A DNA stretch of 10,894 nucleotides, from IMG/VR virus record IMGVR_UViG_2740892526_000019, one strand, 5' to 3'. Position numbers: made by a program. How positions within the stretch are numbered: the first letter of the stretch is position 1; every line of letters starts with the position of its first letter. Shown piece after piece: positions 6,001 through 9,000 of the stretch. Source of the DNA: a virus (lineage: Duplodnaviria > Heunggongvirae > Uroviricota > Caudoviricetes).

Positions 6001-9000
6001 GAAGTAACACCGGACAGTCATGCGTAACCCGCAGAAAAAACCCCGTTTGCGGGTTATTTTGAGCGTTTTGCGGGTTACGTGTTGAGCAAATAATAAACAG
6101 GGTGTTTTGCAACATGCTGATATAAAAGGGTAAAAAATGGTTAGCACGCTAAGATAACCCAATAACCCGCATAACCCGCACATGTTTCTATATATATAAA
6201 TTGAGGTGGCAAATGACCAGAACACGCAGAGACAGAACAGAGCCGAAATATAAAGCGTTAGATATAACAGAGCTGGCCTTAAAGGTGGCAATCAGAACGA
6301 TAGACCGACACGTAGGGGAAGGATACGCGAAGGAACATCCCGACCTGATAAGCGCATTCATGACCACAGCAGCGGCAAACTTTGCCACGTTGACAGAACG
6401 GGAGATTGCCGAAGCGGAACAGGTAACAACCATCAACGTTAAAACCGGAGAGGTGGAATCATGACAGCACAGATAGCGGCTTACGGGCGGCTGGTGGACG
6501 ACCCGCAGGTAAAACAGACCAGTAAGGGCACACCGATGACGCTGGCGCGTATGGCGGTATCGTTGCCATGTAGTCAGGCGCAGGATGGGCAGGCGACGTT
6601 ATGGCTATCGGTCATCGCATTTGGTAAGCAGGCCGACTTCCTGGCTAAACATCAAAAAGGCGACGTTGCCAGCGTATCCGGCACGATGCAGGTCAGCCAG
6701 TGGACCGGACAGAACGGGGAAACGCGGCAGGGTTATCAGGTTATTGCAGACAGCGTAATCAGTGCCCGTGCGGCACGTCCTGGCGGGAACAGACGCAAAA
6801 CCACAGGCACACAGGGTAATCAGCCACCAGCGGGAGGCGATGACCCTTACGGTGACGGTATTCCGTTCTGAGGGGGTGGCGATGGTACATGACCGCATAG
6901 CGGAAGAACTCGAGGCGAAAGGCTTTTACCGGAGGGCGGCGGCGCGATGGGGTGAAGTCATGCTGCTGGTGGAGACAGACAAGGAACGGCATCAGGTTAC
7001 GATGCGACGGCTGGAATGTTCCAGGAAGGCACAGAAGCCACCGGAGCCGCCGGATAACTTCGGAGACCTGAGAAAGGCAGTCGATCGCACTTATGCTGAA
7101 ATGGGTATAGATGGTGTAAGCGATGAAATATGGCGTAATTACCCAGACAGCTAATCAACAGCCGGAGAAATCCGGCTTTTTTTGCACCAGTTGAAACGGT
7201 ATGGCGCATTACCGGGTTTTCGTCACGGTCAGGCATAGTTACTATCTGAAACAAACAGACACAACAGAGGAAAAAACAATGCCGATGAAATTTGATGAGA
7301 TATTAAAACAGCGTGATAAATACCATGCTGACAACATGGAGACGATGAGCATCAATGATTACCGCGCATTCCTGGAGACGGGCGCACTGATTGAAAAGGA
7401 TCAGCATGGTTTTGTGAGATGTGCTCTGTCCGGTGAAATGCTGGCGGTAAATCCTGAACAGATAGATGCATTGATAGAATTTCTGAAAGGGATCAGGGAC
7501 TGAGCACGCATACAGCCGGAGCAATCCGGCTTTTTGTCATTTTTTGTAAATTATTTGTTCGTGGTTGTTCCACGTTGTTCACTGACAGGATCGGCATATT
7601 TTACCCGAACTGAATCATGAGTATTCTCGCCCGTGGTGCCAGGACGCTGGGGCCACTTTCCCGCCTGTTAATGTGCTCGCCAATATTCATTACCAGGCGG
7701 GAAAACGATCGGTGCGATTGCTGATTTCCTTATGAAAAACGGTTGAGTTTTTGCCGCGTCCTGGAGTTCCTTACTTAACCCCAGGACTTTTTTTTATGCC
7801 GAGAATAATCGAATTACGCCAGCAGAAAACCGCCATTAAAAATCAGATGCGCGACATGCTGGAGAACGCGGAAAAAGAAAACCGCAGCCTTAACGATGCA
7901 GAGGGCGCAAAATTTGACGAATTACGCGCTAAAGCTGAATCCCTCGATAAAGACATTTCCCGCCTTGAAGCCATTGCAGACGAAGAGCGCAGCAAGCCAG
8001 GTAAAAGCAGCCAGACCACTGACCCGGCAGAACTCCGCAACTACATCCTGACAGGTGAAACCCGCGCATTAAGTACAGGCGTTCCCGCTGATGGTGGTTA
8101 TACCGTTATCCCCGAACTGAACACCGAAATCATGCGAATGCTGACGGATGAATCCACCATGCGCCGCATCTGTACCGTGAAGAAAATCAGCAGCAACGAG
8201 TTTAAGCAGCTTGTTTCCGCTGGCGGTGCGACCGTTAACCACGGTGAAGAGGGTAAGACACGCGAACAGACCAGCACCCCGCAGATTAACGAGGTGAGCA
8301 TTAAGCTGTATCCGGTCTATGCGTACCCGCGCACCACACAGGAAATCGTGGATTTTTCCGATGTGGACATCCTTTCATGGCTGACGGGTGAGATTGGCGA
8401 CACCTTCACGGAAACCGAAGAAAGCGATCTGGTTGTGGGCGACGGTGACAAAAAAGCAAAAGGTTTTTTATCCGTACCCCGTGCAGAGAAGAACGACAAA
8501 GAGCGTGATTTTGGTACGTTGCAGGTAATTAAACCTTCCGAATCTCTGGCGTGGACATCTGCGGACCCGCTGATCGACCTGAAATTTGCATTACGTAAAA
8601 AATACCGCAAAAACGCGGTCTGGGTGGTTAACTCCACGACGGCGGCAAAACTTCAGAAGGTGAAGAACGCGAACGGTGATTACATCTGGCGCGACCGTTT
8701 ACAGGCGGGTGATCCTGATACGTTGCTGGGCCTTCCGGTCGAATATCTGGAGTTTATGCCTGATAACGTTATTGCCCTGGGTGACTTCAAACGCGGTTAC
8801 TACATTGTTGATCACGAAACAGGTGTTCGCACCAGACCGGACAACCTCACAGAGCCGGGTTTCATCAAAATTTTCACGCAGAAATATTTAGGCGGTGGCG
8901 TGGTGGATTCGAACGCGATCAAGATTCTGGAACTGCCACAGGACGACGATTAACAGCATACAGAAGGGGCTTAAAAGCCCCTTTAGTGTTTTATGGGTGA

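What the first reader, a model, noticed from the sequence alone, without database searches (positions are those of the whole stretch)
7756..7798. Terminator-like hairpin and T8 run ending at the capsid start codon
A 7-bp stem with a 16-nt loop and then eight Ts ends exactly at ATG 7796, with the only SD-like sequence (AGGA) inside the 3' arm. Upstream transcription would be expected to terminate here and translation initiation to be occluded. That implies head-gene expression needs antitermination or a factor that remodels this structure, which is one way a satellite can tie capsid production to helper infection. If TTG 7751 is the real start, the hairpin instead lies inside the coding region.
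Basis: seen in the sequence. Interest (0 to 1): 0.45.

Follow-up and report, generated by a model that had tools for sequence, protein, structure and literature searches.

The report
Switchable terminator hairpin before capsid gene
The terminator-like hairpin and T-run in front of this phage satellite's capsid gene are real, and they are the last helix of a conserved, previously undescribed folded RNA leader whose first hairpin can pair with the terminator's 5' arm, so the block looks self-relieving rather than dependent on a helper phage.

Summary
GTCCTGG (7758-7764) pairs with CCAGGAC (7781-7787) across a 16-nt loop. T8 (7788-7795) abuts ATG 7796, and the only SD-like AGGA lies in the 3' arm. 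The predicted energy is -14.1 kcal/mol. A comparable hairpin+T-run arises anywhere in the window in 9 of 1000 shuffles.

ATG 7796 is the start. TTG 7751 is out of frame in most relatives, which carry T7.

The window is an EcCIEDL933-type capsid-forming PICI. The hairpin ends a ~163-nt leader transcribed from an inferred dedicated promoter (-35 at 7600-7605, -10 at 7622-7627). The leader has a 5'-terminal hairpin P1 and a long helix P2, and both show compensatory changes across diverged islands. No Rfam family matches it.

GCGUCCUGG (7756-7764) is perfectly complementary to the P1 apex CCAGGACGC (7639-7647). In nascent-RNA folds this antiterminator helix forms before the 3' arm exists. Other lineages keep the same competition with different sequences, but they lack the T-run.

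Best reading: an attenuator-like leader switch that gates termination and ribosome binding. No experiment has tested the switch or termination here, and the signal that sets the switch is unknown.

Published work shows these capsids are made without helper induction, so a helper antiterminator is not required.

The parts
7514..7537 (+). Terminator-like hairpin AGCCGGAGCAATCCGGCT plus T-run, ending the upstream small gene. It marks the left edge of the conserved packaging-module control region.
   Evidence: -12.6 kcal/mol. In E. coli relatives with a different upstream module, homology starts here.
7542..7580 (+). Conserved block: TTTTGTAAATTAT followed by three TTGTTC direct repeats (7555, 7565, 7575) at 10-bp spacing. 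It lies at about -90 to -54 of the inferred promoter and is a candidate activator site.
   Evidence: The block is identical in a diverged island whose flanks are not conserved. TGTAAAT is kept in almost all lineages, while the repeats differ between lineages. It always lies about 195-240 bp upstream of a capsid gene.
7600..7627 (+). Inferred sigma-70-type promoter of the packaging operon: -35 TTTACC (7600-7605), 16-bp spacer, -10 TATTCT (7622-7627). The transcription start is inferred at about 7633-7635.
   Evidence: A TAnnnT hexamer ends 5 nt before P1 in 52 of 52 distinct leaders. Relatives have TTTACA-16-TATGTT. The window's hexamers score 8 of 12, below the scan's 9-of-12 threshold. Leaderless relatives have the same -10-like element about 45 nt from the ATG. 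No transcript mapping exists.
7633..7656 (+). P1, the 5'-terminal hairpin of the leader: GUGGU/GCCAC outer stem, CCAG/CUGG inner stem, GACG loop.
   Evidence: P1 is 99.7% paired across 41 sequences, and 5 of 9 pairs show changes on both sides.
7639..7647 (+). Antiterminator strand CCAGGACGC in the P1 apex. Its first 7 nt are identical to the terminator's 3' arm.
   Evidence: 9-bp perfect complement to 7756-7764, equalled or exceeded in 4 of 2000 shuffles. It is the minimum-energy pairing of nascent RNAs ending at 7764-7780.
7657..7704 (+). P2, a long helix (UUUCCCGCCUG / CAGGCGGGAAA) with a variable interior.
   Evidence: There are 19 distinct basal P2 helices among 52 leaders, all complementary. 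U-G pairs occur in the RNA sense.
7707..7726 (+). Small lineage-specific hairpin in the linker between P2 and the terminator.
   Evidence: Predicted fold only. It is absent from the B and C lineages.
7756..7764 (+). GCGUCCUGG: the 5' arm of the terminator plus two bases. This is the contested strand of the switch.
7758..7787 (+). The hairpin of the finding: 7-bp stem, 16-nt loop with an inner 3-bp helix. SD-like AGGA (7783-7786) lies in the 3' arm.
   Evidence: The recurrent variant C7781U keeps a G-U pair.
7788..7795 (+). T8 (U8) tract, both terminator tail and SD-to-AUG spacer. It is T7 in most relatives.
7796..8953 (+). HK97-fold major capsid protein gene, the first gene of the packaging operon. 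Its start is ATG 7796.
   Evidence: Pfam PF05065, E = 2.6e-61. PGAP start. Homologue N-termini.
8963..8994 (+). Post-capsid GC hairpin followed by a U-rich tract, a likely partial terminator that sets the ratio of capsid to downstream gene expression.
   Evidence: An equivalent element follows the capsid gene in nearly all lineage representatives shown, including the leaderless lineage (one group-D locus, L130, lacked it).

Best explanation
The hairpin and U-tract form the expression platform at the 3' end of a ~163-nt structured 5' leader of the cf-PICI packaging-operon mRNA.

The leader is transcribed from its own promoter, which lies just downstream of the terminator at 7514 (inferred). It folds as P1 (7633-7656), P2 (7657-7704), a linker, and the terminal hairpin (7758-7787) followed by U8.

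In the lowest-energy fold, the terminal hairpin has two effects. It has the anatomy of an intrinsic terminator placed immediately before the AUG. It also base-pairs the only SD-like sequence.

The hairpin's 5' arm can instead pair with the P1 apex over 9 bp. Folding of nascent RNA predicts that this antiterminator/anti-sequestor helix forms before the 3' arm has been transcribed. The unusually long 16-nt loop lengthens that time window.

The element would therefore work as a cis-encoded attenuator. The fraction of transcripts in which P1 holds decides how many polymerases stop at the U-tract and how many messages expose the ribosome-binding site.

Shown: the sequence anatomy, the conservation, the covariation of P1 and P2, and the complementarity and its lineage-specific co-variation.

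Inferred: the transcription start, that termination actually occurs, that the alternative helix forms in vivo, and what sets the switch. The signal is unknown. Candidates are a protein or RNA that binds the almost invariant P1, or pure folding kinetics.
For: The hairpin+T-run is real, unlikely by chance and as stable as the window's other terminators.

It sits in a control region that is conserved. A match is found in 423 of 5426 complete E. coli genomes and, in diverged form, in IMG/VR and GTDB islands.

A TAnnnT hexamer lies at a fixed distance from P1 in 52 of 52 leaders.

P1 is 99.7% paired, with 5 of 9 pairs changed on both sides. P2 has 19 different complementary helices and U-G pairs that fit only the + strand RNA.

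The P1 apex is complementary to the 5' arm of the terminal hairpin:
- 9 bp in the window, equalled or exceeded in 4 of 2000 shuffles;
- 8 bp in the main lineage, equalled or exceeded in 8-31 of 2000 shuffles.

Co-variation of this pairing:
- column pair 15:136 is U-A in 34 sequences, C-G in 6 and G-C in 1, with none unpaired;
- pair 17:134 is A-U in 35 and G-C in 6;
- 81.9% of cells are paired, against 24-51% when the partner is slid;
- all 11 sequence types (13 loci) of the L087 lineage combine P1 GACGGGA with target UCCCGUC, and L247 keeps pairing through a G-U.

Nascent-RNA folds ending at 7764-7780 adopt the antiterminator helix. The full-length RNA adopts P1 plus the terminator (-65.3 against -55.8 kcal/mol). 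Other lineages show the same logic.

Lineages B and C keep a hairpin of similar stability at this place (median -11.4 and -13.0 kcal/mol). In lineage C it also occludes the SD zone (median unpaired probability 0.11, against 0.29 in the EDL933 type); in lineage B that zone is largely free (0.43).

Capsids are made without a helper, which fits a built-in bypass.
Against: No transcript ends have been mapped, so the promoter, the start site and termination are all inferred.

The 16-nt loop is outside the usual terminator range, so termination may be weak.

Within the EDL933 lineage there is too little variation to test the stem. No compensatory double mutants were seen, and two singletons weaken the stem.

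Co-variation of the alternative helix rests on about four independent lineages. The window uses the 5' half of P1 whereas the main lineage uses the 3' half, so only a 6-bp core is strictly homologous.

At equilibrium the terminator state is favoured by about 9.5 kcal/mol, so the model depends on kinetics or on an unidentified factor.

By my strict check, only 34 of 52 leaders show the alternative helix in the nascent minimum-energy fold.

Leaderless relatives express the same operon without any of this.
Confidence: 0.5

Rival explanations
1. The element acts only on translation or mRNA stability. The hairpin modulates ribosome access or protects the message. The U-tract is simply an unstructured U-rich SD-to-AUG spacer or an S1-binding enhancer. 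This would resemble the hairpin+U8 in the E. coli rnd leader, which looks like a terminator but is needed for translation. Termination would be negligible.
For: Related lineages keep a hairpin of similar stability before the AUG without any T-run, so termination is not the conserved function. The 16-nt loop is atypical for terminators. The AUG zone stays mostly unpaired (probability 0.78). A/U-rich tracts enhance initiation (PMC3592434 and PMC2176067). The rnd precedent (Zhang and Deutscher 1992) is recalled from my own knowledge; I could confirm only its citation.
Against: A run of 7-8 uninterrupted U directly abutting a -14 kcal/mol GC-rich hairpin is a strong terminator signature, and it has been kept in all EDL933-type islands. 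This reading does not by itself explain why the P1 apex is complementary to the 5' arm, although that pairing could equally serve as an anti-sequestor for translation alone.
Confidence: 0.22
2. One reading: a hard terminator and SD block that is overcome only by a helper-phage antiterminator or remodelling factor, tying capsid synthesis to helper infection.
For: Terminator anatomy at the head of the late operon. This is analogous to the lambdoid pR'-tR' leaders, including Stx phages (PMC7547250). Helper phages do induce alpA in Gram-negative PICIs (PMC6092414).
Against: Tail-less EcCIEDL933 capsids are reported without helper induction, and alpA overexpression alone is used to produce them. 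No Q- or N-like gene is present in the island. The T-run is absent from most related cf-PICIs. A cis antiterminator is present.
Confidence: 0.07
3. P1 and P2 form a put-like, cis-acting processive antiterminator RNA that modifies RNA polymerase. The polymerase then reads through this terminator and the later ones in the operon.
For: The layout resembles HK022 putL: two stem-loops starting at the 5' end of the transcript, directly after the promoter (PMC9378689). Terminator-like hairpins lie downstream.
Against: There is no sequence similarity to putL; only 8-nt chance words were found, at E about 7. P2 is conserved only as a helix. Leaderless lineage D carries the same post-capsid terminator, so the leader is not needed to pass it. 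The specific complementarity of P1 to the terminator arm is explained better by local competition.
Confidence: 0.08
4. An ordinary insulating terminator that stops read-through from the upstream accessory genes, with no regulatory role.
For: The island has several terminator-like hairpins between modules.
Against: The upstream gene already has its own terminator at 7514-7537, and the inferred promoter lies between that terminator and this hairpin. There is no room for a promoter between the T-run and the ATG, so every capsid transcript must cross it.
Confidence: 0.05
5. A chance hairpin next to a chance T-run.
For: The stem is only 7 bp. The z-score of the local fold is modest (-2.1).
Against: Only 9 of 1000 shuffles give such a feature anywhere in the window. 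It is conserved in all EDL933-type islands, with a G-U-preserving variant. It replaces an equally stable hairpin in sister lineages. Its 5' arm matches the P1 apex.
Confidence: 0.03

Closest known systems
Classical transcription attenuators and riboswitch expression platforms (terminator / antiterminator / anti-antiterminator leaders such as trp, pyrBI, PyrR- or TRAP-controlled leaders)
   Same: A promoter-proximal hairpin+U-tract whose 5' arm can pair with an upstream segment instead. That upstream segment is itself held in a hairpin (P1). The SD lies in the 3' arm, giving combined control of transcription and translation.
   Different: No sensor has been identified. The leader ORF is not conserved, there is no conserved aptamer core, and no Rfam family matches. 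The competing strands are about 110 nt apart and bridged by a helix (P2). In sister lineages the platform lacks a U-tract, so it can only act on translation.
Lambdoid late-operon leader pR'-tR' (lambda 6S RNA; StxS in Stx phages), relieved by Q
   Same: A terminator ends a leader of about 160-260 nt at the head of the structural-gene operon of a mobile element.
   Different: There is no Q gene or Q-binding logic in the island. The terminator abuts the start codon and holds the SD. Capsids are made without a helper. The bypass element appears to be RNA in cis.
HK022 put RNA
   Same: A structured RNA made of two stem-loops at the very 5' end of the transcript of an HK97/HK022-related module, acting in cis on termination.
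   Different: There is no sequence or motif similarity. P2 has a free sequence. The proposed action is local strand competition, not modification of the polymerase. Leaderless relatives pass the same downstream terminator.
E. coli rnd (RNase D) leader: GC hairpin plus U8 upstream of the start (Zhang and Deutscher 1992; recalled from my own knowledge, with only the citation confirmed)
   Same: A terminator look-alike with eight U just before the initiation region.
   Different: In rnd the U-tract is reported to be needed for ribosome binding rather than termination. Whether that holds here is untested. Here the SD is inside the stem.
Satellite P4 leader immunity (CI RNA causing premature termination in the leader of the replication operon)
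   Same: A phage satellite that controls an operon through RNA pairing and termination within its leader.
   Different: P4 uses a processed trans-acting RNA and controls the early (replication) operon. Here the pairing is intramolecular and controls the capsid operon.

Membership tests
Intrinsic (Rho-independent) terminator | GC-rich stem immediately followed by a U-tract of at least 6 | tested here: met
   7-bp stem with 5 G-C pairs, -14.1 kcal/mol, then U8 with no gap. T7 or T8 in all EDL933-type relatives.
Intrinsic (Rho-independent) terminator | Short apical loop (typically 3-8 nt) | tested here: not met
   The loop is 16 nt, and the scan with a loop limit of 8 missed it. A predicted inner 3-bp helix leaves an 8-nt apical loop.
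Intrinsic (Rho-independent) terminator | RNA 3' ends in the U-tract, or termination in vitro | not testable with these tools
The Hfq-CRAC sRNA table has no entry in this island.
Transcription attenuator (terminator / antiterminator / anti-antiterminator) | Mutually exclusive pairing of the terminator's 5' arm with an upstream segment | tested here: met
   7756-7764 is complementary to 7639-7647 over 9 bp, equalled or exceeded in 4 of 2000 shuffles. This pairing is the minimum-energy fold of nascent RNA.
Transcription attenuator (terminator / antiterminator / anti-antiterminator) | The alternative pairing is maintained in evolution | tested here: met
   81.9% of cells paired against 24-51% when slid. 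5 of 12 pairs show changes on both sides. The L087 lineage and L247 are consistent. Caveat: there are only about four independent lineages, and only a 6-bp core is shared with the window.
Transcription attenuator (terminator / antiterminator / anti-antiterminator) | A sensing device (leader peptide, protein, tRNA or ligand) | tested here: not met
   The only leader ORF (7617-7724) starts upstream of the inferred transcription start. In relatives it is either a 10-codon ORF or lacks an ATG. A protein or RNA effector cannot be tested here.
Known riboswitch or cis-regulatory RNA families (Rfam 15) | Match to a curated covariance model | tested here: not met
   No leader match at E of 1 or less in the window, or at E of 5 or less in five related loci.
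Known riboswitch or cis-regulatory RNA families (Rfam 15) | Conserved ligand-binding core | tested here: not met
   The P2 interior varies from a plain loop to two small hairpins. Only P1 and the contested arm are conserved in sequence.
HK022 put-type antiterminator RNA | Two stem-loops directly after the promoter | tested here: met
   P1 and P2 begin within about 0-3 nt of the inferred transcription start. The put layout is taken from PMC9378689.
HK022 put-type antiterminator RNA | Sequence or motif similarity to putL/putR | tested here: not met
   putL was retrieved from NC_002166. blastn-short against 52 leaders found only 8-nt words at E about 7.
HK022 put-type antiterminator RNA | Required to pass downstream terminators | tested here: not met
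   Leaderless lineage D has the same post-capsid hairpin+U element.
Lambdoid Q-dependent late leader | A Q-type antiterminator gene or its binding site | tested here: not met
   No such gene is found among the island's ORFs (Pfam; full-island annotation).
Capsid-forming PICI (EcCIEDL933 type), the element that carries the feature | int, alpA and primase together with HK97-type capsid, protease, portal, connectors, HNH, TerS and TerL, and no tail or lysis genes | tested here: met
   Pfam hits. The identical island lies between roxA and phoQ in O157 genomes. It is described as the cf-PICI prototype in 10.1101/2022.09.08.507074.

The most novel reading that the evidence does not exclude
The ~150-165-nt leader (P1, P2 and the contested arm) is a new family of factor-responsive RNA switch specific to capsid-forming PICIs of Enterobacterales. 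An island-, host- or phage-encoded protein or RNA would recognise the almost invariant P1 hairpin. That would decide whether the capsid operon is terminated or translationally silenced, or instead expressed. Such a switch would set the spontaneous, helper-independent production of tail-less capsids that underlies 'tail piracy'.
Probability: 0.3. Interest if true: 0.75.

Novelty: new variant of a known kind. Interest (0 to 1): 0.55.

Why it matters
Capsid-forming PICIs spread between species because they make their own DNA-filled capsids, even without a helper phage. How the capsid operon is switched on has not been described. The two cf-PICI papers I searched contain no mention of a promoter, terminator or antitermination.

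This work proposes a concrete control region: phased repeats, a promoter, a structured leader and a terminator/SD hairpin. It comes with a specific, mutable 9-bp competition, which makes the question directly testable.

If the switch is real, it is a candidate new cis-regulatory RNA family that is absent from Rfam. It would also be a handle for tuning capsid output in PICI-based delivery tools. If only the ordinary reading holds, the result still fixes the capsid start codon and removes the helper-antitermination hypothesis.

Tried and rejected
- **TTG 7751 start:** rejected.
- **Leader-peptide attenuation:** the ORF at 7617-7724 is not conserved and lies partly upstream of the inferred transcription start.
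- **Rfam:** no family matches the leader.
- **put-like RNA:** no similarity to putL, and the leaderless lineage passes the same terminator.
- **AlpA as the protein that binds the phased repeats:** AlpA type and repeat type correlate only imperfectly. Group B islands combine TTGTTC repeats with three different AlpA types.
- **Hfq-bound sRNA:** none is listed for this island in Tree et al. 2014.
- **Metagenome scan for stem variants and one viral scan:** both were wasted because I set the gap to 26-36 when 37-38 was needed. The metagenome hits are chance matches.
- **Within-lineage polymorphism:** too sparse to test the stem.
- **Phage database:** the leader occurs only in cf-PICI-like records, apart from a partial match in a 106-kb Klebsiella phage record (H93, not examined), and the EDL933-type leader has no phage match.
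Full report
**What the window is.** The ORFs and Pfam hits are:
- a P4-type integrase (1-1230);
- an AlpA-like HTH (1595-1783);
- a DUF927 primase (3710-5842);
- SSB;
- a PerC-like protein;
- an HK97-fold major capsid protein (ORF 7751-8953), a prohead protease and a portal.

Positions 7200-8400 are 100% identical to O157:H7 genomes. There the island sits between roxA (ycfD) and phoQ and continues with head-closure and connector genes, HNH, TerS and TerL. This is the EcCIEDL933-type capsid-forming PICI described in 10.1101/2022.09.08.507074.

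**The observation.** It is exactly as described:
- stem GTCCTGG 7758-7764 with CCAGGAC 7781-7787;
- 16-nt loop;
- T8 at 7788-7795;
- ATG at 7796;
- AGGA at 7783-7786, inside the 3' arm.

RNAfold finds the hairpin with an inner 3-bp helix. The 71-nt context has z = -2.1. The hairpin alone is -14.1 kcal/mol, like the window's other terminator-like hairpins at 7160, 7514 and 8963 (-12.6, -12.6 and -14.8). The consensus scan missed it because of its loop limit. A perfect stem of at least 7 bp with a loop of at most 20 nt abutting at least 7 T occurs once in the window. It occurs in 9 of 1000 dinucleotide shuffles.

**Start codon.** PGAP starts the capsid gene at the ATG. Capsid homologues 64-75% identical from E. 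coli, Rosenbergiella, Citrobacter, Erwinia and Gilliamella all align from that methionine (MKKLIELRQQK). Most EDL933-type islands have T7, not T8. As a result the TTG is out of frame in 18 of 23 distinct contexts. The hairpin is therefore untranslated.

**Comparative anatomy.** I collected about 240 related loci. Four kinds of capsid upstream region appear.
- **Group A (EDL933 type):** this hairpin with T7 or T8.
- **Groups B and C:** no T-run, but an equally stable hairpin in the last ~50 nt. In C it is GGUUUCaCGU...ACGGAAACC, median -13.0 kcal/mol, with the SD zone paired.
- **Group D (AT-rich hosts):** a short unstructured leader of about 45 nt.

The terminator look is therefore specific to one lineage, whereas a hairpin in front of the AUG is common to groups A-C.

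Within group A the stem is invariant, apart from three kinds of exception: a recurrent C7781U that keeps a G-U pair, a loop change, and three singletons that bulge or mismatch the stem. There is too little diversity for a covariation test.

**Promoter and leader.** In E. coli relatives whose upstream module differs, homology begins at the terminator at 7514. A 44-bp block (TTTTGTAAATTAT plus three TTGTTC repeats at 10-bp spacing, 7542-7580) is identical in a diverged island whose flanks are not conserved. It always lies about 195-240 bp upstream of a capsid gene.

A TAnnnT hexamer ends 5 nt before the first leader hairpin in 52 of 52 distinct leaders. In the window this reads -35 TTTACC (7600-7605), 16 bp, -10 TATTCT (7622-7627). 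Relatives have TTTACA-16-TATGTT. In group D the same -10-like element sits about 45 nt from the ATG.

I infer a dedicated promoter with a start at about 7633-7635. No transcript mapping exists, and the scan tool's threshold is not reached.

**A structured RNA.** From that start, every group A-C leader folds as P1, P2, linker and terminal hairpin. Across 41 sequences P1 is 99.7% paired, and 5 of 9 pairs show changes on both sides. P2 is a long helix with 19 different but complementary basal sequences. It contains U-G pairs that fit only the + strand RNA. No Rfam family matches. In the phage database the leader occurs only in cf-PICI-like records, apart from a partial match in a 106-kb Klebsiella phage record (H93, not examined).

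**The competing helix.** The 5' arm of the finding's hairpin plus two bases, GCGUCCUGG (7756-7764), is the perfect complement of the P1 apex CCAGGACGC (7639-7647). The 7-mer CCAGGAC occurs both in P1 and as the terminator's 3' arm. Only 4 of 2000 shuffles of the leader's 3' part reach 9 bp.

- **Group C:** the P1 apex AGACGUGA is complementary to UCACGUCU in the 5' arm of its terminal hairpin (8 bp; 8-31 of 2000 shuffles).
- **L087 lineage (11 sequence types, 13 loci):** always pairs P1 GACGGGA with UCCCGUC.
- **L247:** has loop GGCG and keeps the pairing through a G-U.

On the 41-sequence alignment the alternative helix is 81.9% paired, against 24-51% when the partner is slid. Column pair 15:136 is U-A in 34 sequences, C-G in 6 and G-C in 1. 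Pair 17:134 is A-U in 35 and G-C in 6.

Folding the window's RNA as it would emerge gives the antiterminator helix as the minimum-energy structure for ends at 7764-7780. That helix is extended by GGC 7651-7653 pairing with GCC 7753-7755. Once the 3' arm is present, P1 plus the terminator wins (-65.3 against -55.8 kcal/mol). Groups B and C behave alike, although by my strict check only 34 of 52 leaders do so.

**Interpretation.** The geometry is that of an attenuator: P1 is the anti-antiterminator, P1 apex with the 5' arm is the antiterminator, and the hairpin+U8 is a terminator that also holds the SD.
- Shown: the anatomy, the conservation and the co-variation.
- Inferred: the start site, real termination, formation of the alternative helix in vivo, and the trigger.

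In groups B and C the same competition can only free the ribosome-binding region. The EDL933 lineage added a U-tract, and it re-made the competition using the other strand of P1. I read that as selection for the competition itself.

**Helper dependence.**
- AlpA is the island's activator, and helpers induce alpA (PMC6092414).
- Tail-less EcCIEDL933 capsids are reported without helper induction, and alpA overexpression alone is used to make them (10.1101/2025.02.11.637232).
- The island has no Q- or N-like gene.

**Other rivals.**
- *put-like processive antiterminator.* This fits the layout (PMC9378689). However, putL shares nothing with the leaders, and group D passes the same post-capsid terminator without any leader.
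- *Purely translational reading.* Here the hairpin modulates ribosome access and the U-tract acts as an A/U-rich spacer or enhancer. This remains the main rival. The rnd hairpin+U8 precedent is cited from my own knowledge.
- *Plain insulator.* This is unlikely because the upstream gene has its own terminator and the inferred promoter lies in between.
- *Chance.* This is disfavoured.

**Dead ends.**
- AlpA type and the small conserved upstream protein (phrog_1957) do not track repeat type.
- That protein's confident model has no structural neighbour.
- No Hfq-bound sRNA is listed in this island.
- Two collection scans were lost to a mis-set gap.

**Verdict.** The feature is real and non-random. 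As a hairpin+T-run it is an ordinary kind of object. Its setting is not described in the cf-PICI literature I could search, nor in Rfam. That setting is a conserved, covarying leader whose first hairpin competes for the terminator's 5' arm. I rate it a new variant of a known kind (an attenuator-like leader), with interest 0.55.

Noticed in passing
window 7544-7580 (+) and 1273-1322 (-): The TTGTTC repeats at 10-bp phasing upstream of the capsid promoter recur in inverted orientation between int and alpA, as about five phased repeats: TTGTTC, TTGTTC, TTGTTG, TTGCTG, TTGTAT. In related islands a second copy lies just upstream of int (L097, position 577) or at the right end (L107, position 14858). 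The first pair (TGTAAA-N5-TGTTCG, 11-bp period) resembles response-regulator direct-repeat boxes. The binding protein is unknown.
   Followed up: partly
window 7160-7183 and 7514-7537: Two almost identical terminator hairpins (AGCCGGAG[A/C]AATCCGGCT plus a T-run) bracket the small gene at 7279-7503, as if that gene were a cassette carrying a duplicated terminator.
   Followed up: no
[not shown]
   Followed up: yes
window 8963-8994; equivalent position in L097-L175: A GC-rich hairpin followed by a U-rich tract comes directly after the capsid stop codon in nearly all representatives of every lineage shown, including the leaderless one (one group-D locus, L130, lacked it). It is probably a partial terminator that keeps capsid mRNA in excess over protease, portal and terminase mRNA.
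   Followed up: partly
L005:2740-2790, L006, L007 and most group C loci: In group C (and in several D loci) a terminator-like hairpin (CCCCTGTCTCTGACGGGGG followed by TTTTCTTT) sits between the phased repeats and the -10 element, where a -35 would be. The EDL933 and B types have a TTTAC[ACT] -35 there instead.
   Followed up: no
L002:5197-5739; L217:2189-2719: Group B islands encode a ProQ/FinO-family RNA chaperone two genes upstream of the structured leader. It is a possible trans-acting partner for a hairpin-rich leader.
   Followed up: no
window 7736-7740 with 7788-7798: An A5 tract, with the flanking UAUG, can pair with the U-tract and the AUG in the full-length minimum-energy fold. This closes a three-way junction around the terminator. 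The tract is conserved in group A.
   Followed up: no
H93, Klebsiella phage P12620-1 (PQ569648.1) 102124-102273: A 106-kb phage record carries a 98%-identical partial copy of the group C leader under a 'hypothetical protein'. This could be a resident cf-PICI fragment or a chimeric assembly.
   Followed up: no
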